A stretch of 64,000 bases of DNA from the human T2T-CHM13v2.0 reference genome, Homo sapiens: NCBI RefSeq assembly GCF_009914755.1, contig NC_060947.1. One strand, written 5' to 3'. Shown piece by piece: positions 4,183 through 63,948 of the stretch. The translations under genes and the position numbers were made by a program. Position 1 is the first letter of the stretch; every line of letters begins with the position of its first letter. The notes under the pieces are model-generated. The model saw only the letters and a list, made by a program, of their open reading frames with translations. It did no database searches and was not told where the DNA came from.

Positions 4183-7100
4183 TGGATCTGATAGACCTCT
4201 ACAGAACTCTCCACCCAAAAACAACAAAATATACACTCTTCTCATTGCCACATAGCACTTACTCTAAAATCAACCACATAATTGGACATAAAGCAATCCC
4301 TAGCAAGCGCAAAATAACTGAAATCATACCACCAAATACACTCTTGGGACACAGCACAGTAAAAATAGAAGTCAAGACTGAGAAAATCACTCAAAGCCAT
4401 GCAACAAAATAATTACATGGAAACTAAACAACATGCTCCTGAATAACTTTTGAGTAAATAATAAAATTAAGGCAAAAATCAAGAAGTTATTTGAAACTAA
4501 TAAGAAAATAGATACAATACACCAGAATCTCTGGGAAGCAGCTAAGGCAGTGTTAAGAGGGAAACTCCTAGCACTAAATGCCCACATCAAAAAGGTAGAA
4601 AGATCTCAAATTAATAACTTAACATTGCAACTGAATTAGAGAAGCAAGAACAAATCAACCCCAAAGCTAGCATAAGACAAGCAAAATCAGAGCTGAACTG
4701 AAGGAAATTGAGACATGAAAAACCTTTCAAAAGATTGATGAATGCAAAAGTTAGATTTTTGAAAAAATTAATAAGATAGGCCGCTAGCTAGACTAATAAA
4801 GAAGAAAAGAAAGAAGATCCAAATAAACACAATTAGAAATGATGAAGGGAATGTTACCACTGGCCCCACAGAAGCAAAAATAACCAGCAGAATCTATGAT
4901 GAACACTCTATGCACACAAACTAGAAAACCCAGAAGAGATGGATAAATTCCTGGACATATACACCCTCCTAAGACTGAACCAGGGAGAAACTGATACCCT
5001 AAACAGACCAATAATGAGCTCCAGAATTGAATCAGTAATAAATAGCTTTACCAACTAAAAAAAGCCTGGCACTTGATAGATTCACAGCCAAATTCTACCA
5101 GATGTATAAAGAAAGCTGGTAGTATTCCTACTGAAACTATTCCAAAAAATTTAGGAGGAGGGACTCTTCCTCGACTCATTCTATGAGAGCAGCATCATCC
5201 TGATACAAAAACCTGGCAGAGATACAACAAAAAAGAAAACATCAAGCCAATATCCTTGATGAATACTAATGCAAAAATCCTCAACAAAATAATTGCAAAC
5301 CGAATCCAGCAACACAACAAAATGCTAATCCACCATGATCAAGTAGGCTTCATCTCTACGATGCAAGGTTGGCTCAATATATGCGAATCAATAAATGTGA
5401 TTCATCACATAAACAGAACTAAAGACAAAAACTACATGATCATCTCAATAGACGCAGAAAAGGCTTTCAATAAAATTCAACACCCCTTCATGTTAAAAAC
5501 TCTCAATAGGTATTGAAGGAACATATCTCAAAATAATAACAGCCATCTATAACAAACCCATAGCCAACATCATACTGAATGGGCAAAAGCTGGAAGCATT
5601 CCCCTTGAAAACTGGCACAAGACAAAGATGCTCTCTCTCACAACTCCTATTCAACATAGTATTGGAAGTCCCGGTCAGAGCAATCAGGTAAGAGAAAGAA
5701 ATAATGGGCATCCAAATAGGAAGAGAGGAAGTCAAACTATGTCTGCAGATGACATGGTTCTATATCTAGAAAACCTCATAATCTCAGCCCAAAATCTCCT
5801 TCAGCTGATAAACAGCTTCAGCAAAGTTTCAGGATACAAAATCAATGTACAAAAATCACTAGCATTCCTACATACCAACAATAGTCAACCCGAGAACCAA
5901 ATCATGAAAGAACTTCCATTCACAATTGACACAAAAAGAATAAAATACCTAGGAATACAGCTTACCAGGGAGGTGAAAGATCTCTATAAAGAGAATTACA
6001 AAACACTGCTCAAATAAATCAGAGAAGACACAAACAAATGGAAAAACATCCCATGCTCATGGATAGGAGGAATCAATATAATTAAAATGGCCATACTGCT
6101 CAAGGCAACTTACAGATTCAATGCTATACCTATCAAAATACATGTGACATTCTTCACAGAACTAGAAAAAACTATTTTAAAATTCATATGGAACCAAAAA
6201 AGAGCCCAAATGGCCAAGACAATCCTAAGCAAAAAGAACAAAGCTTGAAGCATCATGTTACCCAACTTTGAACTACACTACAGGCTGACAGTAACCAAAA
6301 CAGCATGGTACTGGTACAAAAACAGATACATAGACCAATGGAACAGAATAGAGAGCCCAGAAATAAGGCTGCACACCTATCACCATCTGATCTTCAACAA
6401 AGCTGACAAGAGCAAGCAATGGGGGAAAGACTCCCTATTTAGTAAATGGTACTGGGATAACTAGCTAGCCATATTCAGAAGATTGAAGCTGGACCCCTTT
6501 CTTATAGGATATACAAAAATCAACTCAAGATGGATCAAAGACTTAAATGTAAAACCCAAAACTATAAAAACCCTGGAAGACAACCTAGGTAATACCATTC
6601 TGAACATAGGAACGGGCAAAGATTTCATGACAAAGACAACAAATGCAATTTCAACAAAAGCAAAAGTTGACAAATGGGATCTAATTAAACTTCAGAGCTT
6701 CTGCACAGCAAAATAAACTATCAACAGAGTAAACAGACAACCTACAGAATAGGAGAAAATATTTGCAAACTATGCATCTGACAAAGGTCTAATATCCAGC
6801 ATCTTTAAGGAACTTAACAAGTTTACAAGAGAAAAACAAAAACCCAATTAAAAAGTAGGCAAGGGATATGAACAGATACTTTTCAAAAGACGACATACAT
6901 GCGGCCAACAAGCATAGGAAAAAAAGCTCAATATCAATGATCATTAGAGTAATGCAAATCAAAGCCACAATGAGATACCATGTCACACCAGTCAGAGTGG
7001 CTACTATTAAAAATTCAAAAAAATAATACATGCTGGCGAGGTTGCAGAGAAAAGAAAACACTTATACCCTGTTGATGGGAGAGTAAACCAGTTCAACCAT

Positions 7101-7535
7101 TGAGGAAAGCAGTATGGTGATTTCTCAAAGAGTTAAAAGTAGAACTACCATTTGACTCAGCAATCCCACTACTGTGTATATACCAAGAGGAATATAAATC
7201 ATTCTACTATAAAGACACATGCACGTGAATGTTCACTGCGGCACTATTCACAACAACAAAGACTTGGAATGCTCATCAATGCTGCATGTTCTCACTCAAA
7301 AGTGGGAACTAAATGATGAGAACTCATGAACACAAAAAAGGAAACAACAGACACTGGGATCTATTGAGGGTGGAGGGTGAGAGGAAGGAGAGGAGCAGAA
7401 AAGATAACTGTTGGGTACTGGGCTTAATACCCGGGTGATGAAATAATCTGTATGACAAACCCCTGTGACACAAGTTTACCAAGTAACAGACCTTTACAAG
7501 TATCCCCGAACCTAAACTAAAAATTTTTAAGAAAA
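4183..7535 (+). mobile_element. 5'-truncated L1PA (older, about L1PA12-13-like); disrupted ORF2 and 3'UTR
   Basis: ORF2 fragments ([43 protein letters not shown]) with multiple stops; 3'UTR ggagcagaaaagataact...; A-rich end. Confidence 0.93.
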
Positions 7536-12620: not shown

Positions 12621-13169
12621 TCATCAACACAAACATGTTCATGGAAGAGACCAGGTTCTGCAAACGTATTTCTGAAAGCACATTTCTGAAATGTGTCTGC
12701 AGCGTTGTGGTTTGGCAGTTGTTTTGTTTTTGTTTTTCCAGATATATCTTGCTTCTTAAATACCCTGGTGAATTATAAACCACAAAATCAATCTTTAAGA
12801 AAAAGTGCAGGGCTCAGTCAACTGTATTTACTTGTGTGCATTTGCCATTTTAGGTCCATTAAAGGTCAGGGGCTTTGATCACGACATCAAGAAATTTATG
12901 TAAAACAGCAAGCAGGTGGCTACCTTACCCAGGCACAACCAGATACCTGCTCTGTTCAACAGTTTGTTACTGGCAAAGATTTTGCAACAATCTTTTATGC
13001 CAGTACTGGTATCAGAAGTTAGCATTATAGATTTCCAATAATGTTTTCTTATTTGGACCTAAGACTTGCTCAGACATCTATTTTCTCTTTACATATTAGC
13101 ATACCTCTTACAATTTTTTACTTTCATTGGTAGTAAGGTTTGGCTTTCCTCTGTTGTTGGCATATAATA

Positions 13170-13380
13170 AAAATAATAGCTGACATCTATTAAGTGATTA
13201 CCCTGTGCCAGGAACTGTACTAGGTGCTTTCAATATTGTTAACTCAATAAATTTTCACAAAAACCCTGTGAAGTAGGTACTACTATTATGCCCATTGAAC
13301 AAATGAGAAAACTAAAGCACAGGGAAATTAAGTAACTTGTCCAAGGAAACATAGGTAGAAAGTGTCTGAACTTGAATTTG
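13170..13380 (-). mobile_element. MIR
   Basis: MIR core: gtaggtactactattatgcccatt...atgagaaaactaaagcacaggg...aagtaacttgtccaagg. Confidence 0.85.
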
Positions 13381-28584: not shown

Positions 28585-28830
28585 TCCCAATAGTAATAGT
28601 GATATTAACGATTATCAAACCTTTATTGAGAATTTACTATGTGCTAGGGACTATAACTAGTGCTTATATGGAAAAGCTTAGTTATTCCTCACAGTAATCT
28701 TGTAAGGTAGGTTCTATCACCAATCTCCATTTTACAGATGAGAAAATGGAGTCAGGAATGTTGAACTGACTTATCCAAGGTCACAAAGTTAGTATGTAAG
28801 AGTTGGGACTCAAACTCAGGTCTTGTCTGA
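28585..28830 (-). mobile_element. MIR
   Basis: ccattttacagatgagaaaatggag...ttatccaaggtcaca...gggactcaaactcagg. Confidence 0.85.
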
Positions 28831-42090: not shown

Positions 42091-43087
42091 ACAGATATTA
42101 CCTGAAAGAAGACCAACCTTTAATCAGAAACAAAAATGTATTCAAGTATATGGCACAGATAAATCATTCAGTCTCAGTGACCTGTATCCAATGTTGAGCC
42201 TATTCCAAAGTTGCCATCTAATGAGGTGGAAAGATCCTTTATTTACCTGAACAGTTCTAAAAGTTTCATATTTTGTACTATTACACCCAATAATTAATGT
42301 TATCTCATGTGAATGGCTTGAGTTCCAACTATTTATACATTTCCTGCAATTAGTATGCATTTGAGAAATTTTTAGTAAATACTGCTATTATTTATTATTA
42401 AGCCTTGAATGGCAAGCAGAAATCTGAAGTTAATTGTTGTACCTTCTTTATGGATATATATCCCTCTTATAGTAAATCCACAGATAGGGATTCCTGGTCA
42501 AGGCATTAACAAGAGCTTAGTGACCTTCAAGATGCCTCCCAGAGGAGGCTGTCATAATCTCTTAAAGAAAATTTGTTAGTTGTCTGGAATAAAGTCCATA
42601 GTTACCAGTTGACTTGATCCACTTTATATGCTTTATTATTACTGTTATATTAAAGTACATCAGGCAAGACTAGTGGTTTAAGCTCCTCTCAATTTATGCC
42701 TTACCTCTGCCCCTTATGCCTTACCTTTGTCCTTAGTTTCCAGAAGAGTTTAAAGAGCCATTTTTACTAAATTCCAAAGACAGTACATGAAAGGCATTGA
42801 AACTAATGATTATCAGAAGAAAAATCCACTGAATTCTAGCAAAGACCAGTGAGGAAGTGAATGCAGCTTACTAGCATTCCAACTAAATTTAGTAGTATCA
42901 GTTGTATAAGAATCTGAGTGGGTAGTTGGATTAAATATTTGCAAATATGCTGAAAAAAAGATGAGTTTTATCTTGGTGATAATACAGTTATATTAAAGAC
43001 AAGTTGGGGTAGAAAATCATATTGAGGTAAAGCTGTGGAATAATGTGGCTCTATGCAACTTACTTCCTTTCTCTTAGCCCTTGGTTT

Positions 43088-43394
<307 letters not shown>

Positions 43395-43814: not shown

Positions 43815-44500
<686 letters not shown>

Positions 44501-45809
44501 CAAAATTTTAAAAAGGGTTATTTTGTCAGACCATTTGAAATGATTCCATTAATGAAAAATTCCTAATATGAGGGCCCAGCTCATGGGCCTGGATCCAGGG
44601 CAGTTGGAGGCTTCAGCCATCAGATGATAACTAGACAAGAGCTCCGCACCCCCAACAATAACCCAGGTCAGAAAGCTGCAAATCCAGACACCCAAAATCC
44701 CTTCAGAGAATTTCAGTGAGAACAATGGATGATTAAGACAATAAGCAAAGTCTGTTTAACTTTCTTTCTCCTGAACAACCCTACAGCTCTCAAGCACATT
44801 GTGGACAGCAGGTTTCTCAAGCAGTGAAATCCCCATGTACAAAAGCAGAGCTAATGATTCCCGTGGGGTCAAACAAGCCCAGAGGAACCGCATCCTTCAG
44901 CAGCTGCCCACCCCTCCTGAGAAGGAAAGAGCTGATATGGGAGCAGAGGCCTGACTGGGGCTTTAGTGACTCCTAGCTCTGGCTTTACAACATACACTCT
45001 TGTCTGACACTATCATTTATACAAATAAGGCACACAAACTCCAAGTCTGACTCTTTTCCTCCTCTTGCCTAAAGATTCTTTAAGACTAAGGATCATGAGT
45101 GTTATCTTTATCAGCCAGGTTATGAACTCTGAAGAATGGTTTCTTAATGGAAATACTAACCACTGTTAATTAGCAAAACAAATTTCAAGATGAAAAGTCT
45201 GTTGATTCTAAATATTCATTATTTCATTCTTTTATTCAAATTATAAACATTTATTGAAGACCTATTATGAGTCAGATACTGGACTGGTGAAAGAAAATGG
45301 TGCAGAATGCTCTGACCTGATGAAACAGTTTAGATGAACATAGATCAATAAATAGAAACGAGAATGACGTTAATAGAATTTCATTAAGCGGAGAACATAC
45401 TTGATTTAACCTTGCACTCCCTCTAGTGGTTTTTTTTTTTGTTAAAATGTGAAGCTTATATAACAGCCCACAGTCTAGTAATGTTCAATATGCTGGAATC
45501 TCTGACATCCTGACTGCTTGACTTTGTGAGCACTGTAATCTCTGACTGCCACGTGGAACCTCTCACCTTCTCTCTCTCCCGGTCCTGATAATTTGATATC
45601 TGTCAAGATATTACCACTGATTCATTCAACAAATATTTATTGAGAATCTATCTTGAGAAGGCATTAACTAATCATTCCAATTTAATAACTTTATTTCCCA
45701 AACATTTTAACATTCAGTAAGTCAACTGGTAACACTATGATGGACAGTCTCTTAAAGGGTTGGGAATTAACATTTCCTATTCATCTCTGTCCTGCCCATC
45801 TACTGCAAC

Positions 45810-46780
45810 TTTCACGCTTGTCCATTCCCCAACAATACGAGCTGGGGCCTTGTATGAGGGCTTACTATGTGCCAGGTAGAGTTCTAGGCAGTGAAGCTAT
45901 AGTAAGGAACAAAACAGACAAAACTTCCCTTCCCCATGAAGCTTATGCTCTAGTGGTGGCGGGAGGGTGAAACAAAATAGATATAATTAACAAGTAGATT
46001 AGGTAATTTTTCCAATTATCAATGGTATGGAGAACAGTAAAACAGGAAAAGGATGACAGGAGGCTTTTTTTTTTTTTTCTCGTGCGCAAATTTTTTAAAA
46101 ATGTGGTTAGGGAAGGCCTCAGTGAGAAAGTGTTATTTGAGCAAAGACTTGAAGGAAGTGAAGGGACATCCTTGGGGGAAAAGCATTCCAGGCAGTGGGA
46201 ATAGCAAGGGCAAAGCCCTAGAGGTGGGAACATGCCTGGTATGTCCAAGGGGCACAATGAATCCAGTGCCTGAAGAACAGTGAGGGAAAGCAGAGAATAG
46301 CAGTTTTACCAGGGAGAGGAGAAAAGGGGATATTGTGCAGGGCCTTGTAGGCCATGGTAGGGACTTCGGCTTTTACTCTGAGTGGAACAGGGAGCCAGTG
46401 CAGTGTTTTGAGCAGGGGAGTGACAGGATCTAATTTGTTTTAAAAGGGTAATTTTAATGTTGTGTGGAGAACAGACCAAAGGGGGCAAGGCTAGAAGCAG
46501 GAACGCTAGCTGGGAGGCTGTTGCAATAATCAGTGAGAGAGGTGATCATGGTTTGTACTAGAGTTATAGTGCTAGAGGTAGTGAGAGGTGGTCAGATTCT
46601 GGATGTATTTTGAAGACAGAGTTGACAGGGTTTTTTTACAGATTGAATTTGAGGTGTGAACGAAAGGAGTCAAGGGCAATTCTGATATGTTTGACTTAAA
46701 CAACTAGAAGAATAAGATTGCCATATGGGAGGGAAAGATTGCAAGTTCAGCTTTGGACATATTAAGTTTAGGATGTCAAT
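45810..46780 (-). mobile_element. L2
   Basis: Classic reverse L2 (ggaaggcctcagtgagaaagtg...cattccaggcagtgggaatagcaagggcaaagccct). Confidence 0.88.
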
Positions 46781-47754
46781 CAGACACCCACCAACCAATC
46801 TACTCTCTACCACCTTCTCCTGCCTATACATTTTACCCACTCAGATTTCTCTCTGTCACAAATCCTTTGATACTTCTATGTACTTTTTGGTATGTTATTT
46901 CCAGTCTTAGTTATAATATTTCCATCTACTTAACAAGAAACTGGGTATTTTTGACATATCCCTTCTCTTCACCCCCAACAGCCAATTGATCACCATGTCC
47001 ATTCTGTCAATTATACTTCCCAAATTACTCTCAAGTGCTATCCTTTCTTTTCACATCTGCTGTCATTAATTTTGTTCATACTTTCCCAATCTCTACTTTG
47101 GTCACTGAGCATAACAGTCTGATCTTTTTCCTTTATCAGTGAGAATGGGTAGAGTGATCCAGCTGATCTGGGGTCAGGAAGTGAGGGTGGAGGCAAGTAA
47201 TTTACTCCCAGTCCTGGTACCTTGAACTGAAAGTGAATATACATCATTTTCACACTTTGAGGCTTAGCCTGGAGTTGGTGCTACTGTAATCACTCCATTA
47301 CCACCCAGCTCAGAATAACATTTAAGAGAGATTGCTGAGGTTGAGCTGAGAAAGCATACCTATAATCAGATTATATCAAGGTCCCTTTGAGTGGTCCACC
47401 CAACTACGTCTTGGTCAACAACTTTCCCAGAGAATGAGGCGGTGGACCAACCATGATGCTGCTGGAAATCTGGCACCTCTTTCATGACATAACTGGTCTC
47501 TTAGCCTTAGGTTTGCTGGGGCTAATTGCAGAGACAAGGTAGTCAAAGTACACCAAGGAGTACTGAAAAGACTGGATGAGTGATCATGCGGAGGAAGGGC
47601 GTGAAGTTCAAGGAGCTGCTGCTGTAGGAGGTCTATGGGCAGATGACTGAATTTCACTTCAAAGGTTTATAAAGAGTCCTTCAATTTTTGGCATGGGCAG
47701 ATGAGTCTGTGCCCAAATGAAATCTCACTGATGTCTCACACCTGAATGATTCAG

Positions 47755-48020
47755 TTAGTGTAATTCATATACAATTTAAGAGCAAACACTTTTTGGTGCT
47801 CAGTATGTGCCAGGCACTATTCTACGTGCTTTACACATATTAGTTCATATCATATCACACTGTTTTTTGAGGTAGGTAGTATTATCATCTCCCTTTTATA
47901 GTCAGGAACTTGAGGAAAAGAGGGTTTAAGTTGTTCAAGTTGACATAGAAAGTGATAGTGCTGGGATTCAAACCCAGGCAGTGTGACTTCAGAGTTCCTG
48001 CTTTTAACCCCTGTGCTATG
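47755..48020 (-). mobile_element. MIR inserted in the gypsy relic
   Basis: atgtgccaggcactattctacgtgctttaca...gctgggattcaaacccaggcagtgtgacttcagag. Confidence 0.88.
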
Positions 48021-48576
48021 TTGTATGCTGAAGGCTAACTGGCTATGTCCTTGTGTAGTCCATACTTGGTTTTGGTTGACCCAGGTATTGGCAGACTCTG
48101 GAGTGTTGATGGTTTCAGTAACTAGCCAGGGCAATAGTGGGCTAGAAACGATTGATGCCTTGAAGGGAAGAGGCCTGGATGGAGGGGTATAGTGAGTTAA
48201 GAAATGCATTCTGAGGAGTCTGGGGAGGAGAACCAATGTGTTATGTGTTAGAGTAGCAGTAGCATTCTCCGCCAGTACGTGGTTAATGCATATGGCTGTG
48301 GCTGGAGAGCAGGTGGCCGTGGGACTTGTGAAAGGGAAGACCTTTTAGATGAACAAGGCACCAGTAGCTGGTGTGAATTGGGCCAAGAGGGTAAGAGGGA
48401 TCAATCACTGATTTGAAGGTGTTCTAGATGTGAATCTACAATAGAGTTCATTGGGACAATGTCCCAATGTCCCGAGAGCCTGAAGGATACCTTGGTCTTT
48501 CTACTTCAACTGTAGAAATCATAAAGGCATACTACAGGTTAGGTCAGACAGGAGACAACTGAAAGACCACTTAGAT

Positions 48577-48735
48577 GAAGAGTTATCAAAATGTGCTGTG
48601 TATCAGAATCACCTGGGTAGGCATTGGTTAAAAATGAATATTCTTGGGCTCCACCCCTAAAGGGTCTGATTCCGGAATCATCATTTTAGGATTAAGATGC
48701 AGGTGGTCTGCAGACTACATTATGAAACACGCTCC
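48577..48735. mobile_element. MER5A-like hAT MITE inserted in the gypsy integrase
   Basis: atcagaatcacctggg...ttcttgggctccacccc...gatgcaggtggtctgcagactacatt. Confidence 0.75.
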
Positions 48736-50261
48736 ATCAGATTACAAGCATATTTGAATACCTGTGTGGGCTTCTTGGAGTGGTGCTAATGGGCACAAGT
48801 GACTGCAGATCCTATTAGAATGGGGCACATGGAACAGAAACTTCTGGGCTGCGCCATGATGAACCAGGATCTTTACGTTCTACACGTGCATCTGCCTGTT
48901 ACCTATGCTGTGACTGGGGTAAATGGCTGTGACATTCTCAAGCTGGAACCATTTCCACTTCCCCTTAAGATTCTGAATTCTGAAACAGGATGGGTGCGAG
49001 TATGCCCTGGCTGGTCCAGGCTGTAATGGTTTGAGCTCATGACCACAAGCTGCCTGTCTCTCTGAAAGGAAGTATGTCCTGTCTTAAAAGTGGCCTTGAT
49101 CGCTAAGAGCTCTCATTTGCACTTGGAGTAATTGACCTTGGTTAGGACCAACTTCTTGGAGAAGTGGGGACAGGGGCAGAGATCAAAGTACCCAGGTTCT
49201 CCTGCGACAGGACAATATCCCACTCCCCACACCTGGATGTTGAAGGCATTAGTCAACAGTATAGGCCAGGGCTGGGGTAGAAATAAGCAAGACTTTAAGC
49301 TACTGGAAGGTCATTTTTTTGTGTGACAGGGAACCAAATTCCTTTCTCTTAAGGAGATCGAATATTGGGGTAGTGAAAATGTACAGGTGGTAGATGGATT
49401 GCTGGTGGTATCAAGGGATTGCTGATGTTTTCAATCTTCCTAGGAGACTTCATTTCAAAAAGGCTTACATGTTACCCAGCACTATATAAACTCTGGCATA
49501 ACAGAATGTAGCCCAGAAACACGATTTTTACACTTTGGGGCTTGGCCTGAAGTTGGTACTACTGTAATCGCTCTAATACCATCCAGCCCAGAGATTCTGT
49601 CAAGTCACATTAAGCGAATTTCTCAAAATATTGCCCAAGAACTATGGAATTGATTTAGAAGGTTCCAGACTAATTTTGGATAGTGATTACACTAAGGATG
49701 GGATAATTATGACAAGGAAGAACTCCCTCCTTTTTATTTTCAGAAAGAGTCTCAAGGCTAATATGGAAGAGGTGGAGGAGGAATCAAGATGCTGTCCAAA
49801 GTTTTTGTTTTGTAGAAGGCCTTGATTTTAGACTCAGAGAGAATCTGCTCCTTTGGTAGTAAGGCAAGTCCTGGTTATCAGGGCTACCACATAGTCATCC
49901 TCATCAATTAGGGGCGGTCGCTCTGTCTCTTGGTAGATAGTATCTTTATTTGCCTTATAGGTATGAGTTGGATCCTAGCAGTGTGAGGGGTGGGTTGAAC
50001 AGGGAATTCTCTGTGTTGTTTTGGGTGGGGTAGAAGGTCATTGGAAATGCTGGTAGCAAAATTCTGACAAAGTGAAGGATGTGAGTCTTGAAGGCAGTAG
50101 AGAATAGTCTATTCTCAGCAAGGAATGGCATATGGACAAAGGGTAGTGGGTGACAAACAATATCAAGGCTGACCTCAGCTGCACAGGCAGTTAGACTTGC
50201 TGGACCAGGAACCTGTCTGAGAGGTTGCCTAAGAACTCCTGAGTATAACCTAGTCTGGATA

Positions 50262-50435
50262 TAATAAATGACTTTTATCAAATGCTTGCTATGAGCCAGG
50301 CTCTTGCTAAGCTCTTTAACTGCAATTATCACATTTAATCCTTATAACCCTATAAGGTACATACTATTGTTATCTCCATTTTATAAATGAGGACACTGAG
50401 GCACAGAGAGGTAGTAATTGATGGAGCTGGGATTC
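50262..50435 (-). mobile_element. MIR inserted between gypsy gag and protease
   Basis: tatctccattttataaatgaggacactgaggcacagagagg. Confidence 0.85.
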
Positions 50436-51719
50436 CCTGTGCCACACTTCACCTGTGACATACCATCTTCCCCATTTCTATAGGAATTTTAGGAACACCC
50501 CTCACCCACTAGAGGCTAGTGGTAGGGATGCCATAGGGACAAAGCATGTCCTAGCTCGTTCCTATGCTGGTGGCTGGCCAGGCAGTTTTCTGATGAAGGG
50601 GCTAGTGCCTTATGGGTTGGACATGTATTGACAGAGAATGATCTGGGCTACTATGGTAAAGGCCTGTTGGTTTTGTCTAGTGATGTGCCTGTTCTACAGG
50701 TGCCAGCACAGAACAGTTGTGAATAGCAAGTACAGAGACATGCCCCCCACAGGTAAGGAGGGGTTTCCCTTGGTGTTGAGGCAATGTTGCTGATACTGAA
50801 TCCAGATCTCCATTTTCATGCAGTTATTTATTTGTTTATAAAGGCTGGAGCTGGGGTGGTGTGGATAGAGGAGGAGGTTTGGCTACTTGGTTAACAAGTT
50901 ACACTGTGCACAGAGCCCTTTGGGGAACTGGAACTGTAGTGTAATTCACTACCATTTACTCTCTCTGAGGCAAAAAGGGTGAAGCTCTTGGTATACAGCT
51001 CTAGTAGCTTTGATTCTAACTGCTGGGTGGGTGGTAACTAAGAGCTGGAGGTCTAGTTCTACATTCTTCCTGTAGAGCTTGCCAAGACAAACAGCATAGA
51101 GCTTTATGGCTCTACCATTTACTGCCCCCAGGTGGAAGTCCCAGAAACCAATAGCATTCCATGGGAGAGTAATTTCTCCCTCTCTTAGCAGGGAAGCAGG
51201 ACAGAGGGGACCTAACTGGCATAGATCCTATGTTGCTGGACAGAAGGCTGAAATGTTATGGGACAAGAGGGTAAATTACAGAATTGTTGGGGGAAGAAGG
51301 ATGTGGTCATGTTAGAGATGTGGGTCTTAAATGGATTATCAGTAAGATGAAGGAAGATATTGGGAACTGAGATGCAGAACCAAACAGAATAAGACACTAG
51401 AAAAGGCTGGTGGAAGGGTGAAGACTAGCCAGTCAAAGTAACCAAGCAAGATGTGATCTAGACACATTCTGGAGGTTAGGAGTCACCGTGCTGGGTGAAA
51501 TGAATAATGTCATGGATAGGGTTAGTTCCATGTAAGGGAATTTACATGGAACAAGATGACTTCCTAAGACACTGATGACAGAAGGCAGAATCAAAGGATT
51601 CAAAGAGGTCTGTGAACAAGTGACACAAGGCAAGAGGACAACATAGAGAAGCAGAGGCCACTGGACAGGCACTTCATCAGTGTGCTAGCAGGCAACCCCC
51701 ACACTCCTTTACCACACTC

Positions 51720-53560
51720 ATTCTTGACTTCTTTCGCTCTGGCTTCACAAGAGATGCTTCTCTAAAAGACATTCACCTCACTCTCTCCTGCCACCTCTAA
51801 GACTTTGCTCCATCTCTTATCTTTTTCATATTTCCAATATTTCCCCTTCAGCTCCTAAATGTTCTTAATCTAAATGTTCCTAATCTCTTAAAACAATACC
51901 AACAAACCACCCCTCAACCCTTACTTTCCCTTGACCACACCCCTCCTCTTTTCTTTATCATTCAAACCTCTGGACAGACACAGTAGCTTTCCTTTCCTAT
52001 TTCGTTAGTTCCTACTCACTCCTCAATGGTTTGAGGTATACTTCCATCACTTTCTACAAAGTTCTCTGACCAAGGTCATTAATGACCATCTTAATTGTCA
52101 AATACGATTCACACTTCAGTACCTATCTAGATTACCTCTTTGTGGTACATTAAACTGTTGAGAACTCTTTTCTTCCTTAAGCTCTTCTGCCCCCTTGGGA
52201 TTCCATAACCCCTTTCTATTTTGATTATATGGCTAGACTTGATTGTTGCTTTTCAGCTGAATCAACTGGAGCCTCTTCTGCTTGCCCATTACAAGTTGGT
52301 GCCTCTTGGGGTTCTAGGCTCTACTTTCATTTTCTCCTTATTATCTACCTTTTCCCTAAGTAATCCCATCCATTTTCATGGTTTTCACCACCACTTGATA
52401 TACTGGCAACACATCTATCTCCAGTTCCAGCTTCTACTTCCATTTCCAAATCTGGATATCAAATTTCCCTATATATTACCTCTGATGCACACCACCACCT
52501 ATTCCTATTTATTGAGGTAGTGTAGTAAGTGTAGCACAGTGGTTAAGTAGCCAGCTTGAAGAATCAGATTGCCTGGGTTTGAACCCAACTTGGTCACTTA
52601 CTAAACTTCAGCAAGTCATTTAACCTCTCTGTACTTCCATGTATAAAACAGAGATAATAATTTGTACCTACTGCTTAGTGTTCCTCTGAGGATAGATGAG
52701 AAAAATGCACATAAGGTAGCGCCTACTATATAGCTCAACATAGGTTAGCTATTGTTATTCCCATTTTGCTTGGGACTCCACTTAGGCAAGCCAGAAACCT
52801 GAGTTATCTTCCTCATCTTTCATCTCCTCCCACATCTAGTTAATCATCAATACTTGCTTTTATCTCTTAAAGCTGTCTCAAATCAGCCTTCACCATTCCC
52901 CGTCCCCTAATCTCATTGCTTTGCCTAAGTTCAGGTCTTCATTTTTCAGTGGGACTGTGATACCTTAAGCGGTCTCCCTACGTTCAGCCTATGCCTCTTG
53001 CAATCCATCTGCTATAACTGCAATCAGAGTTATTTTCCTACAAACATCTAACCGTGTTACTTCCTAACACAATTTTTCAGTGGCTCCCCATTTCCTATAG
53101 CAGAGTTTCTTAAAATTCATATAACAGAATTATTCCTAGAGTTTGAAAGTGCAGGTTCCTATGTACTACCCCAAACCTACCAAATCAAGATGTCTGAGAG
53201 AGACCCAGAAATCTACATTTTAAAATTCGGTGATTCCAATATACATGAAGTGCTTCATGACCCATTTCCTGTGTTTCTACCTCTTCTTCTGCCATTATCT
53301 ACTTTATACCTTAACCCTCCAGCAATATTGAGCTATGTGTAGTTTCTCAAATCTGCCAAACTATATTACATTGCTCTGCTTTTTATTTTACATTATTTTA
53401 TTTCTGCCTTTTTATTTTATATTGCCCTACTTTTAAAAATGTTGTTCTGGCCTTCTGGAATACCCCTACCCTGCCACCTCCTTGTCTCACTGGCACATCC
53501 CTTTTCATCCTTTGAAGACATCTTCATCATCACCTCCTTACTGATAAATCTTACGTCATC
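51720..53560 (+). mobile_element. L2 (ORF2/3' region) interrupted by MIR (~52516-52755) and MER5-like MITE (~53101-53250)
   Basis: L2 RT-like gttctctgaccaaggtcattaatgacc and CT-rich L2 body. Confidence 0.72.
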
Positions 53561-53568
53561 TCTATAGC

Positions 53569-54035
53569 ACTGTTTCTCAACCATTTCTCTTCTCTCTCTC
53601 TCTCTCTCTCTCTGAGACCAGATCTTGCTCTGTCACCCAGGCTGGAGTGCAGTGGTGCAACCTCAAACTCCTGGGCTCAAGTGATCCTCCCACCTCAGCC
53701 TCCTGAGTAGCTAGGACTACAGGCATGCACCACCATGCCCAGCTAATTTTCTAATTCTTTGTAGAGATGGAGTCTCACTATGTTGCCCAGGCTGTCAAAC
53801 ATTTTTTCATTATCATGTCCCACCTCTACTGAAAGAGCCTTTTTAGATACCTTTTCCTAATTGACCCCCCCATAACATTTTAATACTGCAGATATACTGT
53901 ACATCTGTTTATGTACTGTGGTACATTGGAGGACTGTAAACCATCATAAAATATAAGTTTTTTTCACCTCCTTCTACCAAGAATAAATTTTTGTTCCCTT
54001 GGGGCCAATATCACTTCTGTTGCAGATGCATGCGC
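53569..54035. mobile_element. hAT MITE (MER96B-like) carrying a partial AluJ (53585-53795, minus, (CT)n tail)
   Basis: cactgtttctcaacc...ttttcattatc...gagcctttttagatacc; Alu inside. Confidence 0.65.
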
Positions 54036-57700: not shown

Positions 57701-57951
57701 ATATATATATGTATGTGTATATATACGTATATATACATATATATATATGTGTATCACATACCCAATATCACCATCCTCACAAAGCCACTGTTAACATTGT
57801 GTTTTATTTCCCTCTAAGATATTTTCATATGCATATATTCTTTACAGGACTCTAAGTGAATATATGAGGTTTAGCCAACTGCCCTTTAAAAACAAAATCA
57901 ACATTATAAGATAAGCATTTTTTCTATTTATGCAGTTGTACTAGCCACCCT

Positions 57952-58253
57952 ATTTATTTATTTATTTATTTTGAGATGGCATCTCCCTCTGTCGCCCAGG
58001 CTGGAGTGCAGTGGCATGATCTAGGCTCACTGCAGCCTCCTCCTCCCAGGTTCAAGTGATTCTCCTGCCTCAACTTCCTGGGTAGCTGGGATTACAGGCT
58101 CATGCCACCATGCCCAGCTAATGTTTTGTATTTTTAGTAGAGACGGGGTTTCACCATGTTGGCCAGGACAGTCTCGATCTCTTGACCTTGTGATCCGCCT
58201 GCCTCGGTCTCCCAAAGTGCTGGGATTACAGGTGTGAGCCACCGCGCCTGGCC
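57952..58253 (-). mobile_element. AluS (Sc-like)
   Basis: Reverse Alu with (TTTA)n tail; flanks tagccacc. Confidence 0.93.
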
Positions 58254-58522
58254 AATAGCCACCATTTTTAATGGTTTTATAATATCCCTTCAAGTGGATA
58301 TGTTGCAGTATACTACCTAACCCACTGTTGTTGAATATTTGGGTCTCCCTCCTGCCCCTTTTTTGGCTACTATAAGTAACAGAGAAAGTACCATCTTCAC
58401 AAACACATCTTTACCATATTTTGGGTCGGTTTACTTCCTTAGAATAGATTACCAAGAGTAATAGATGTTATCAAAGATCTTCCTTTGTTTGGCTCATATT
58501 GGTAGGAGGGAAAAATATATAT

Positions 58523-62144: not shown

Positions 62145-63948
62145 CTACCCAACAACTGCAGAATATACATTCTATTCATCAGCACATGGAACATTCTCCA
62201 AGACAGACCATATGATAGGCCACAAAACAAGTCTCACTTAAGAAAATCTTTAACAAGCCTTGATTTTAAAAATCAAAATTATATCAAGTACTCTCTCAGA
62301 TCACAGTGGAATAAAATTAGAAATAAACTCCAAAAGGCACCCTCAAAACCATGCAAATACATGGCAATTAAATAACCTGCTTCTGAATGAACATTGGGTC
62401 AACAATGAAATCAAGACAAAAGTTAAAAAATTCTTTGAACAGAACGATAATAGTGACACAACCTATCAAAACCTCTAGGATACAGCAAAAGCAGTGCTAA
62501 GGGGAAATGCCCCTTAGCAAATGCATTGAATACCTACATTAAAAAGTCTGAAAGAGCACAAATAGACAATCTAAGGGCACACCTCATGAAACTGGAGAAA
62601 CAAGAACAATCCAAGCCCAAACCCAGCAGAAGAAAAGAAATAACCAAGATCAGAGCAGAACTAAATGAAACTGAAACAAACAAACAAAAAAATACAAAAG
62701 ATAAATGAAGCAAAACGCTGGTTCTTTTAAAATAAATAAAATTGATAGACAATTGGCAAGATGAACCAAGGAAAGAAGAGAGAAGATCCAAATAAGCTCA
62801 AGTAGAAATGAAATGGGAGATATTACAACTGATACCACAGAAATACCAAAGATTATTCAATGCTACTAAGAACACTTACGTGCACAAACTAGAAAACCTA
62901 AAGGAGATGGATAAATTCCTGGAAATATACAACCCTCCTACATTAAACCAGGAACATAAAGCATCTCTGAACAGACCAGTAACAAGCAGCGAGATTGAAA
63001 TGGTAACAACAACAACAAAAAATGCCAACAAAAAAGTGCACAGGACCAGACGAATTCACAGTTGAACTCTATCAGACATTCAAAGAAGAATTGATACCAA
63101 TCTTATTGACACTATTCCAAAAGTTAGAGGAAGAGGGAATCCTCCCTAAATCATTCTATGAAGCCAATATCACCCTAATACCAAAACTAGGGAAGGACAT
63201 AACAAAAAAAGAAAACTACAGACCAAAGTCCCTGATGAAGATGCAAAAATCTTCAACAAGATAATAGTGAACCAAATCCAACAGGATATCAAAAGATAAT
63301 TCACCATGATCAACTGGGTTCGATATTAGAGATGCAGGGATAGTTTAACATACACAAGTCAATAAGTGTGATATACCACATAAACAGAATTAAAAACAAA
63401 AATCGCATGATCATCTCAATAGATGCAGAAAAAGCATTTGACAAAATTCAGCATCGCTTTATGATTAAAACCCCGAGCAAAATTGGCATAGGAGGGACGT
63501 ACCTTAAGGTAATAAAAGGTAATAATCTACAACAAACCCACGGCCAACATTATACTGAACGGGCAAAAGTTGAAAGCATTCCCCCCAAGAACTGGAAGAA
63601 GAAAAGGATGCCCACTTTCACCACTTCTATTCAACATAGTACTGGAAGTCCTAGTCAGAGCAATCAGACAAGAGAAAGAAATAAAGGGCACCCAAATCGG
63701 TAAAGAGGAAGTCAAACTGTTGCTCTTTGTTGATGATATGATCATATACCTAGAAAACCCTGAAGACTCATCCAAATAGCTCCTAGAACTGGTAAATGAA
63801 TTCAGCAAAGTTTTAGGATACAAAATTAATATACATAAATCAATAGCTGTGCTATGCACCACAGCAACAAAGCTGATAATCAAATCAAGAACTCAACCCC
63901 TTTCACAATAGCTGCAGAAAAAATAAAATACTTAAGAATATACCTAGC

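What the first reader, a model, noticed from the sequence alone, without database searches (positions are those of the whole stretch)
47230..51250. Near-complete fossil Sushi-like Ty3/Gypsy retrotransposon (gag-PR-RT-RH-IN) hidden in the HDAC8 intron
Seen in sequence: a ~4-kb stretch with no informative ORF yields, across stops and frameshifts, about a dozen motifs on the minus strand in exact gypsy order. These are gag (YTKSFTLFASE..W..ITLQFQFPKGL, like YxxEFRxLAxxxxWNExALxxQFxxGL), protease (LYSGVL/GNLSD, like LDSGAxGNFID), RT (KKEGVLPCHNYPILSVITIQN; VLERLQ*YQLQAKP..VFLGYIL), connection (FQ*LKVLLISTPALAY), RNase H (LCPCPHFSKKL...NY....ELLAIKATF) and integrase (AHTGI; GILQAL; WDIVPMNSIVD; LKGLP). 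Established: integrase after RNase H is Ty3/Gypsy or retroviral order; LHPCAFFSKKL and ELLAIK are typical of Sushi-type gypsy elements; PEG10, RTL1 and several X-linked RTL/SIRH genes (including RTL5 in Xq13.1) derive from that lineage, and PEG10 and RTL1 do not retain an intact integrase. Inference: this may be a rare integrase-containing relic of a family related to the RTL/SIRH progenitor, lying in sense orientation to HDAC8. I cannot tell whether it is already annotated (e.g. as MamGypsy/MamGyp-int).
Basis: partly seen in the sequence, partly recalled or inferred. Interest (0 to 1): 0.85.

Follow-up and report, generated by a model that had tools for sequence, protein, structure and literature searches.

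The report
Short Gypsy pol fossil, not near-complete
An intron of human HDAC8 holds a real but short (about 0.75 kb) and badly decayed piece of an ancient Ty3/Gypsy retrotransposon polymerase gene; the claimed capsid, protease and integrase parts cannot be told from chance, so it is an ordinary genomic fossil, not a rare near-complete one.

Summary
Partly confirmed. The written motifs are all in the sequence, but only a contiguous minus-strand core at 49741-49008 is better than chance. It comprises an RT N-terminal motif, RT motif 7, the connection and an RNase H. The core scores 74.9 against a control mean of 17.6 (0 of 375 controls reach it). Its 81-residue RNase H piece finds a Sushi-like protein at E=7.3e-5 among 1.84 billion proteins.

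It is Ty3/Gypsy-type, not ERV-type: group profiles give 33.0-38.5 bits for Gypsy and 8.0 for human ERVs.

The RT catalytic palm is deleted, and the core carries 3 stops and at least 2 frameshifts.

The gag, protease and integrase motifs fail unbanded, single-segment and register-banded tests. No LTRs were found. Two MIR-like repeats lie inside the span.

A Sushi affinity is favoured by nearest neighbours, but the tree does not resolve it. RTL1 shows no detectable match to the locus.

Human Gypsy fossils are already catalogued (PMC5753468). I could not check the RepeatMasker/Dfam annotation of this copy. Low interest.

The parts
49673..49741 (-). RT N-terminal motif (fingers region). It is in the same frame as RT motif 7.
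   Evidence: A 23-residue ungapped match to the Sushi-like profile at positions 566-588 scores 19.7 bits. 0 of 400 control tiles reach it, max 18.8. The general Gypsy profile aligns the same stretch in two pieces but not significantly (219 of 400). Moderate support.
49592..49672 (-). Junction where the RT catalytic palm should lie. About 31 codons stand in for about 107 profile positions, so roughly 60-75 codons are missing.
   Evidence: Chain traceback coordinates against the Sushi profile: position 588 at 49673 and position 695 at 49579. There is one weak 11.9-bit piece at positions 658-668.
49502..49591 (-). RT motif 7 and the start of the thumb, with one in-frame stop and a deletion of about 5 residues relative to Gypsy RTs.
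   Evidence: Directed chain test: z=8.6 with both profiles, 0 of 240 controls. Best segments of 17.7 and 18.5 bits, 0 of 400 controls. tblastn to P0094 residues 670-700, E=0.61.
49261..49410 (-). RT connection and N-terminal start of the RNase H domain, with one in-frame stop. It is frameshifted relative to RT motif 7.
   Evidence: Profile hit of 10.5 bits, E=0.012. tblastn to P0112 and P0111, E=0.029 and 0.12. It scores 17.6 bits with the non-Sushi Gypsy profile.
49008..49250 (-). Ty3/Gypsy-type RNase H, with one in-frame stop. Asn stands at two of the conserved Asp positions. It is frameshifted relative to the connection.
   Evidence: Pfam RT_RNaseH_2 E=0.0046. tblastn best E=5e-4. Profile hits of 15.0 and 16.0 bits. 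phmmer against 1.84 billion proteins: best hit E=7.3e-5. Group profiles: Sushi 20.5, other Gypsy 16.6, ERV -0.3 bits.
47225..47314 (-). Second copy, about 82% identical, of the RT motif 7 piece. It shares the same stop and the same small deletion.
   Evidence: the repeat finder family D1. blastn: 69 nt, 85.5% identical, E=5e-17. Local alignment score 101 against a shuffle mean of 28.5 and max of 39. Origin unexplained.
47700..48075 (.). Old interspersed repeat copy (MIR-like; the name is recalled) inside the claimed integrase and 3' span. Not part of the retrotransposon.
   Evidence: It matches 13161-13325, 50283-50429 and 52532-52671 at 64-71% identity.
50250..50475 (.). Old interspersed repeat copy (MIR-like; the name is recalled) between the claimed gag and protease. 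Not part of the retrotransposon.
   Evidence: It matches 13173-13325, 28619-28754 and 47797-47942 at 63-73% identity.

Best explanation
This is a dead fragment of the pol gene of an ancient Ty3/Gypsy (Metaviridae) LTR retrotransposon. It lies in sense orientation in an HDAC8 intron.

What can still be recognised, at 49741-49008 on the minus strand, is an RT N-terminal motif, then a gap where the RT palm has been deleted, then RT motif 7, the connection, and a Gypsy-type RNase H. The piece is broken by 3 in-frame stops and at least 2 frameshifts.

Inferred history: an element, or a fragment of one, inserted in an early mammalian or pre-mammalian ancestor, when such elements were last active. 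It then decayed neutrally, lost sequence by deletion, and was interrupted by SINE insertions. One 90-nt patch was copied 2.3 kb away after the element was already dead. No function is expected.

Shown: the homology, the order and strand of the four pieces, the Gypsy rather than ERV type, and the breaks. Inferred: the age, the neutral decay, and the absence of function.

Its nearest living relatives in my panel are Sushi-like chromoviruses of fish, but clade membership is unresolved.
For: - Core chain score 74.9 against a control mean of 17.6 (sd 2.9, max 29.9); 0 of 375 controls reach it.
- As a positive control against column-shuffled profiles, the core scores 125.5 against 71.5 (sd 5.7); 0 of 150.
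- Pfam RT_RNaseH_2, E=0.0046.
- 8 of 23 Gypsy polyproteins hit the RNase H stretch by tblastn; best E=5e-4, against 0.25 for the best hit in the reversed window.
- Exhaustive phmmer: 2 hits at E<=0.001 among 1,835,955,588 proteins. The best, P0233, has RNase H copies 71-72% identical to the Sushi-like P0093.
- Gypsy rather than ERV: group profiles give Sushi 33.0, other Gypsy 38.5, RTL1 16.3 and ERV 8.0 bits. Identity is 30-35% to Sushi-like rows and 19-23% to ERV rows. None of the 187 ORFs from 29 human ERV-like loci hits the RNase H stretch on the minus strand at E<=10. The diagnostic columns match the Gypsy rows and not the ERV rows.
- Background: human DNA is known to hold only traces of Gypsy elements (PMC5753468, passages). 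Metaviridae stopped transposing in an ancient ancestor of mammals (PMC11011659, section 5).
Against: - The Pfam hit is below the curated cut-off (17.4 against 29.8 bits).
- The RT N-terminal motif is significant with one of the two profiles only.
- The ML tree places the long window branch next to the ERV branch, with no support (30/0), so the tree alone does not exclude an ERV-side position.
- My ERV panel is 29 loci chosen by Pfam score. It forms two clades and may not cover all old ERV classes.
- No LTRs, gag or integrase could be shown, so the assignment to an LTR retrotransposon rests on pol homology alone.
- No paralogous copy was found in the genome by DNA or protein search. Those searches also missed the 90-nt copy inside the window, so they are insensitive.
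Confidence: 0.82

Rival explanations
1. A near-complete gag-PR-RT-RH-IN element spans about 51250-47230. Its gag, protease and integrase are still present but have decayed below what my tests can detect.
For:
- The register-banded chains pick them up at the matching profile positions: protease 361-371, gag 194-220, integrase 1058-1063.
- Banded scores show small excesses: PR 12 of 300, IN 22 of 300, gag 56 of 300. Summed flanks are reached by 0 of 150 controls at J=5, band 60.
Against: - The excess depends on parameters: 16-56 of 150 at J=8-11.
- It vanishes with the composition-matched null: 13 of 150 and 46 of 150. For integrase the reversed profile scores higher than the true one, 78.4 against 76.6.
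- There are no Pfam hits for RVT_1, rve, gag or protease families at E<=1.
- Unbiased profile scans give nothing for these domains.
- Integrase and the RT palm are normally better conserved than RNase H. Yet RNase H is the part that survives, and the RT palm is demonstrably deleted.
- No LTR pair was found.
Confidence: 0.12
2. The fragment comes from an ancient endogenous retrovirus (for example an ERVL-like lineage), not from a Ty3/Gypsy element. The apparent RNase H would then be the retroviral connection domain.
For: - Pfam RT_RNaseH_2 and Integrase_H2C2 also hit thousands of ERV-like loci in the human genome: 2250 and 990 first-look candidates.
- In the ML tree the window's long branch attaches beside the ERV branch (support 30/0).
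Against: - The ERV group profile gives 8.0 bits, against 33.0-38.5 for the Gypsy profiles. The RNase H piece alone scores -0.3 against 16.6-20.5.
- No ERV ORF hits the stretch.
- Identity is 19-23% to ERV rows and 30-35% to Sushi-like rows.
- The diagnostic columns follow the Gypsy rows.
- The best hit in 1.84 billion proteins is Sushi-like.
- The tree join is flagged as a long-branch meeting.
Confidence: 0.04
3. Chance. The whole set of motifs, including the RNase H, is a coincidence in non-coding DNA.
Against: - The core is reached by 0 of 375 genomic controls and 0 of 20 shuffles, and by 0 of 150 column-shuffled profiles.
- E=7.3e-5 against the 1.84-billion-protein library.
- Three adjacent collinear pieces on one strand match.
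Confidence: 0.01

Closest known systems
Sushi-ichi-like Ty3/Gypsy chromoviruses of fish (here P0093, P0094 and P0233, retrieved through human RTL1)
   Same: - Highest identity over the RT7-connection-RNase H core: 30-35%, best 43 of 123.
- The best hit of the RNase H piece in the exhaustive search is of this kind.
- The RT N-terminal motif matches this profile without a gap.
- A window+Sushi+RTL1 clade is not rejected (p-AU 0.518).
   Different: - The fish elements are intact, with gag-PR-RT-RH-IN-SH3-chromo. The window shows only RT remnants and RNase H.
- The connection piece scores better with non-Sushi Gypsy: 17.6 against 6.6 bits.
- The free ML tree leaves the window outside the starred 21-row Sushi+RTL1 clade (100/93).
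Catalogued human Gypsy fossils of Repbase/Dfam: MamGyp-int with MamGypLTR1-3, LTR85/88/104, X1-X4_LR (PMC5753468, Table 4 passage); MamGypsy2-LTR is named in 10.1101/2021.02.16.431334 (passages)
   Same: The same kind of object: ancient, degraded traces of Gypsy LTR retrotransposons scattered in the human genome.
   Different: Membership of any named family could not be tested, because no Dfam or Repbase consensus or annotation is on hand. MamGyp-int is described as the source of the PNMA2 gag (10.1101/2023.02.09.527862, passage). That points to a lineage other than Sushi for that family.
RTL1/PEG11, the domesticated Sushi-derived gene that keeps PR, RT and RNase H-like domains
   Same: It derives from a Ty3/Gypsy pol and carries the same Pfam RNase H-like families.
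   Different: - RTL1 is an intact 1377-codon open frame under selection.
- It shows no tblastn match to the window locus at E<=10.
- It is only 20-23% identical over the core.
- The RTL1 group profile gives 16.3 bits.
Human endogenous retrovirus pol (29 loci taken from the Pfam hits)
   Same: They share the RT - RNase H-like - integrase plan and hit the same Pfam families.
   Different: - The ERV rows carry a different residue pattern at the RNase H motif columns.
- They have about 120-135 extra residues between that domain and integrase (my estimate coordinates).
- They score far worse on the window pieces.

Membership tests
Ty3/Gypsy (Metaviridae) LTR retrotransposon | RT followed directly by a Gypsy-type RNase H (Pfam RT_RNaseH / RT_RNaseH_2) on one strand | tested here: met
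   The four pieces are collinear at 49741-49008 on the minus strand. Gypsy group profiles give 33.0-38.5 bits against 8.0 for ERV. The Pfam hit itself is below its cut-off.
Ty3/Gypsy (Metaviridae) LTR retrotransposon | Integrase downstream of RNase H | tested here: not met
   No Pfam rve or H2C2 hit. Directed tests: 164 and 25 of 240, 202 and 166 of 340. Banded: 22 of 300, but 40 of 150 and 76 of 150 against shuffled profiles, and the reversed profile scores higher. It may be lost or decayed; absence in the ancestor is not shown.
Ty3/Gypsy (Metaviridae) LTR retrotransposon | gag (capsid) and aspartic protease upstream of RT | tested here: not met
   gag: 31 and 23 of 240. PR: 134 and 73 of 240. 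Banded: PR 12 of 300, gag 56 of 300. Against shuffled profiles: PR 12 and 31 of 150, gag 38 and 53 of 150. A published T2T-wide capsid HMM scan does not name HDAC8 in its main text (PMC11011659, term search, section 5). Its supplements were not seen.
Ty3/Gypsy (Metaviridae) LTR retrotransposon | Flanking long terminal repeats | tested here: inconclusive
   The repeat finder on 44500-54000 and a self-blastn on 44001-54000 found no LTR-like pair around the core. LTRs of this age could be too diverged for these tools.
Ty3/Gypsy (Metaviridae) LTR retrotransposon | Intact RT catalytic palm | tested here: not met
   About 31 codons stand where about 107 profile positions lie between the N-terminal motif and motif 7. 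No RVT_1 Pfam hit.
Sushi-like / RTL (SIRH) progenitor lineage | Groups with Sushi-like elements and RTL1 in a pol tree | tested here: inconclusive
   In the free ML tree the window is unresolved and lies outside the starred 21-row Sushi+RTL1 clade. Holding them together costs nothing: lnL is 0.68 higher, p-AU 0.518. The window branch is long (1.91).
Sushi-like / RTL (SIRH) progenitor lineage | Nearest neighbours by sequence are Sushi-like | tested here: met
   The top 4 of 51 rows by identity are Sushi-like. The best exhaustive hit, P0233, is 71-72% identical to P0093 over its RNase H. Against this, the non-Sushi Gypsy profile sums higher, 38.5 against 33.0 bits.
Sushi-like / RTL (SIRH) progenitor lineage | LDOC1/RTL-type gag (DUF4939) and a chromodomain integrase | tested here: not met
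   Neither gag nor the integrase C-terminus is detectable. SH3_Tf2-1 has no hit over its cut-off anywhere in the genome.
Named Dfam/Repbase family (MamGyp-int, MamGypsy2-I, X1-4_LR) | Nucleotide match to the family consensus, or a RepeatMasker annotation at the locus | not testable with these tools
   No Dfam or Repbase library or repeat annotation with family names is on hand. The hub's table gives masked stretches without names.
Endogenous retrovirus (Orthoretrovirinae-like) | Connection domain of ERV type, followed by a separate retroviral RNase H | tested here: not met
   ERV group profile 8.0 bits, with -0.3 on the RNase H piece. No ERV ORF hit. No RNase_H Pfam hit. The motif columns differ.

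The most novel reading that the evidence does not exclude
The core is a surviving non-domesticated pol remnant of the same Sushi-like lineage that gave rise to the RTL/SIRH genes. It sits on the X chromosome, where several of those genes lie. If orthologous copies exist across mammals, comparing them could date the last activity of that lineage. It could also show what its RT and RNase H looked like outside the domesticated genes.
Probability: 0.2. Interest if true: 0.4.

Novelty: new member of a known kind. Interest (0 to 1): 0.15.

Why it matters
It matters little. Traces of Gypsy retrotransposons in human DNA are already catalogued (PMC5753468), and this copy shows no sign of function.

The useful results are negative:
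- The attractive 'near-complete, integrase-bearing relic' reading does not survive calibrated tests.
- A chain of a dozen short motifs in the right order can arise by eye in 4 kb of non-coding DNA.

If the Sushi affinity were confirmed, the fragment would be a small extra data point on the extinct lineage behind the RTL genes.

Tried and rejected
- PDB sequence search with the whole minus frame: 0 hits at E<=10.
- Word-indexed protein search with the RNase H read-through, longer proteins: 117 candidates, none at E<=0.001.
- Own-genome DNA and protein searches for paralogues: only the locus itself. These searches also missed the 90-nt copy inside the window, so they say little.
- Genome-wide Pfam searches with RT_RNaseH_2 and Integrase_H2C2, meant as Gypsy-specific probes: both are swamped by ERV-like loci, so they were rejected as discriminators. 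SH3_Tf2-1 gave 4 weak hits, none over its cut-off.
- tblastn with human RTL1 and with a 1000-codon open frame on C14 (probably NYNRIN; the name is recalled, not tested): nothing in the region.
- Unconstrained chains with low jump penalties collect noise across the whole 6.5 kb. I discarded them in favour of calibrated tests.
- The ML tree could not place the window.
- Register-banded tests for the flanks looked suggestive but were not robust.
- The two plus-strand profile hits at 6595-6951 and 62313-62669 have no meaningful Pfam match and are unrelated to the finding.
- The second exhaustive hit, P0234, has no RT or RNase H Pfam domain and only zero-stretch matches to unrelated families. I give it no weight.
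The protein atlas does not take sequences containing X, and I did not pursue it.


Full report
THE LOCUS AND WHAT WAS CLAIMED

The window is human T2T chrX:70,928,001-70,992,000, inside an HDAC8 intron; HDAC8 is on the minus strand. It read them as a near-complete Sushi-like Ty3/Gypsy element (gag-PR-RT-RH-IN). It stressed the integrase as the rare feature.

THE OBSERVATION

Every quoted string is present in minus-strand frames at about the stated places (read-through translations). Presence is not the issue. Significance is.

A Pfam scan of the three minus frames of 46000-52500, with stops read as X, gave a single relevant result. RT_RNaseH_2 scored E=0.0046 and 17.4 bits, below its 29.8-bit cut-off. 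RT_RNaseH scored E=0.1. Both fall on the claimed RNase H motif. There were no hits to RVT_1, rve, Integrase_H2C2, gag or protease families at E<=1. A PDB sequence search found nothing.

REFERENCE SEQUENCES

The window's own genome can be searched. Pfam RT_RNaseH_2 found an intact 1377-codon frame on C14. This is RTL1, 96% identical to a primate RTL1. Using it as bait gave 24 polyprotein hits, P0091-P0114, of which I used 23 (P0107 was left out). They include full-length Sushi-like fish elements with gag-PR-RT-RH-IN-SH3-chromo. A second search gave a deep Sushi-like set.

From these I built two profiles:
- a general Gypsy profile, gyp21, from 21 sequences;
- a Sushi-like profile from 18 sequences, which also covers gag.

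THE CORE IS REAL

- tblastn of 23 Gypsy polyproteins against the whole window put its seven lowest-E hits on 49410-49014, minus strand. The best was E=5e-4, and 8 of the 23 queries hit the RNase H stretch at E<=10. The best hit in the reversed window was E=0.25.
- An unfiltered profile scan of six-frame chunks gave 15.0 bits (E=5.6e-4) at 49178-49014 and 10.5 bits (E=0.012) at 49410-49261. The best in the reversed control was 1.7 bits. The Sushi profile gave 16.0 bits, E=2e-4.
- A frameshift-tolerant protein-to-DNA chaining score that I wrote gave 74.9 for 49600-49000 against RT7-RH profile positions. Across 375 genomic and reversed control tiles the mean was 17.6 (sd 2.9, max 29.9), and none reached the observed score. 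None of 20 dinucleotide shuffles did either.
- Piece by piece: RT motif 7 has z=8.6 (0 of 240 controls), and connection plus RNase H has z=10.0 and 13.9 (0 of 240).
- An RT N-terminal motif at 49741-49673 matches the Sushi profile without a gap at 19.7 bits (0 of 400 controls, max 18.8). With the general profile it is not significant (219 of 400).
- The 81-residue RNase H piece, searched by phmmer against 1,835,955,588 representative proteins, found 2 proteins at E<=0.001. The best scored E=7.3e-5.

STATE OF THE CORE

The four pieces are collinear on one strand. By coordinates, the RT N-terminal motif and motif 7 share a frame, and the connection and the RNase H each lie in another frame. Each of motif 7, connection and RNase H holds one in-frame stop.

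Between the N-terminal motif (profile position 588 at 49673) and motif 7 (position 695 at 49579) only about 31 codons remain. So roughly 60-75 codons are gone, including the catalytic palm.

At two of the conserved Asp positions of the RNase H the window has Asn (reading against the Gypsy rows).

GYPSY OR ERV?

This had to be tested, because RT_RNaseH_2 and Integrase_H2C2 also hit thousands of ERV-like loci in the human genome: 2250 and 990 first-look candidates.

I took all 187 ORFs of 90 or more codons from 29 such loci.
- None hits the RNase H stretch on the minus strand at E<=10. The best in-region hit is E=0.083, on the other strand; the reversed control reached 0.008.
- Over the core, the window is 30-35% identical to Sushi-like rows, 20-33% to other Gypsy rows, 20-23% to RTL1 rows and 19-23% to ERV rows.
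- Group-specific profiles score the three pieces at 33.0 bits (Sushi-like), 38.5 (other Gypsy), 16.3 (RTL1) and 8.0 (ERV). On the RNase H piece alone they give 20.5, 16.6, 11.9 and -0.3.
- At the diagnostic motif columns the window follows the Gypsy rows and not the ERV rows.

The ML tree is of little help. The window has a long branch (1.91) and sits in an unresolved position. It can be read as one side of a branch together with the ERVs, with support 30/0. The program flags this as a meeting of long branches.

SUSHI-LIKE OR NOT?

In favour:
- The four most identical rows are Sushi-like.
- The best hit of the exhaustive search, P0233, has RNase H copies 71-72% identical to P0093.
- The RT N-terminal motif fits the Sushi profile without a gap.
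- Forcing window+Sushi+RTL1 into one clade does not lower the likelihood (p-AU 0.518).

Against or neutral:
- The non-Sushi Gypsy profile sums higher, because of the connection piece (17.6 against 6.6 bits).
- The free tree leaves the window outside the starred 21-row Sushi+RTL1 clade.
- RTL1 itself has no tblastn match in the region.

I rate a Sushi-like origin at about even odds. A specific tie to the RTL progenitor is not shown.

THE FLANKS: GAG, PROTEASE, INTEGRASE

With the general profile, the upstream 1.8 kb and the downstream 1.8 kb score like controls: 11 of 127 and 37 of 127 controls reach them at J=10, and 58 and 103 of 127 at J=14.

Directed tests paired each claimed domain, at its claimed place, with the matching profile range. 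The counts give controls that reach the observed score, for the sushi profile and then gyp21.

| Domain | Chain test | Best single segment |
|---|---|---|
| gag | 31, 23 of 240 | 51, 95 of 400 |
| protease | 134, 73 of 240 | 279, 350 of 400 |
| integrase | 164, 25 of 240 | 202, 166 of 340 |

So I also ran a test that accepts only matches near the diagonal expected from the verified anchors.
- It gave PR 12 of 300, IN 22 of 300 and gag 56 of 300.
- The excess depends on parameters. The summed flank score is reached by 0 and 7 of 150 controls at J=5, but by 16-56 of 150 at J=8-11.
- Against a null that keeps the same DNA and shuffles the profile columns, it is gone: 13 of 150 at J=5 and 46 of 150 at J=8. 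For integrase the reversed profile scores higher than the true one, 78.4 against 76.6. The core, as positive control, passes with 0 of 150.

So these domains are not shown. A faint remnant, most plausibly of the protease, cannot be excluded.

OTHER CONTENTS OF THE SPAN

- About 47700-48075 and 50250-50475 match each other and three further places in the window at 63-73% identity. They are old interspersed repeats.
- No LTR-like direct repeat flanks the core.
- A 90-nt copy of exactly the RT motif 7 piece lies at 47225-47314. It is about 82% identical (score 101 against a shuffle maximum of 39). It shares the same stop and the same small deletion, so it was copied after the element had died. 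I have no explanation for it.

WHAT IS KNOWN

[quoted passage not shown] It lists MamGyp-int with its LTRs, LTR85/88/104, MamGypLTR3 and X1-X4_LR (PMC5753468, passages). MamGypsy2-LTR is used as a RepeatMasker family name in 10.1101/2021.02.16.431334 (passages). MamGyp-int is called the source of the PNMA2 gag (10.1101/2023.02.09.527862, passage).

Henriques et al. scanned the six-frame T2T translation with metaviral capsid HMMs. They found 24 intact metaviral capsid-like sequences and 2 pseudogenes, and state that Metaviridae ceased transposing in an ancient ancestor of mammals (PMC11011659, section 5 read in full). 'HDAC8' does not occur in the main text. Their supplements were not seen.

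I searched the paper library with 'MamGypsy2'/'MamGyp-int' and with Sushi-ichi, RTL1, PEG10, integrase, gypsy and reverse transcriptase. No title or abstract listed in those searches concerned this locus. I could not consult RepeatMasker or Dfam, so I cannot say whether this copy is annotated.

VERDICT

This is a real but short and broken Ty3/Gypsy pol fossil (RT remnants plus RNase H, about 0.75 kb). It is possibly of Sushi-like descent and has no sign of function. It is an ordinary member of a known kind. Interest is low.

Noticed in passing
window 47225-47314 and 49500-49592: A 90-nt direct duplicate, about 82% identical and 2278 nt apart. It covers exactly the RT motif 7 piece, with the stop and the deletion shared. 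It is a patch copied after the element was dead. The mechanism is unknown.
   Followed up: partly
window 6400-7101 (+), 62217-62783 (+), 5243-5872 (+): Weak hits of my Gypsy profile (8.5 and 7.8 bits) with no meaningful Pfam match. From recall, the translations look like LINE-1 ORF2 fragments. They are unrelated to the finding.
   Followed up: partly
window 44160-44366 and 53613-53794; also 43077-43388, 57946-58283 and others: Direct repeats at 74% identity, and many strong tblastn matches to short ORFs from other human loci. They look like Alu-type SINE copies (name recalled). These explain most of the high-scoring hits.
   Followed up: no
P0233 (protein from the representative library): The best relative of the window's RNase H is a 657-residue predicted protein with two tandem RNase H copies. 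Its RT N-terminal motif joins directly to the connection, so it too lacks most of RT. It is presumably a rearranged Sushi-like copy.
   Followed up: no
G000:C14:18613875-18615263 (L016, L018): A 1000-codon open frame that is the top genome-wide hit for Integrase_H2C2 and the second for RT_RNaseH_2. It is probably NYNRIN (name recalled, not tested). In the core tree it sits on a very long branch (2.31).
   Followed up: no
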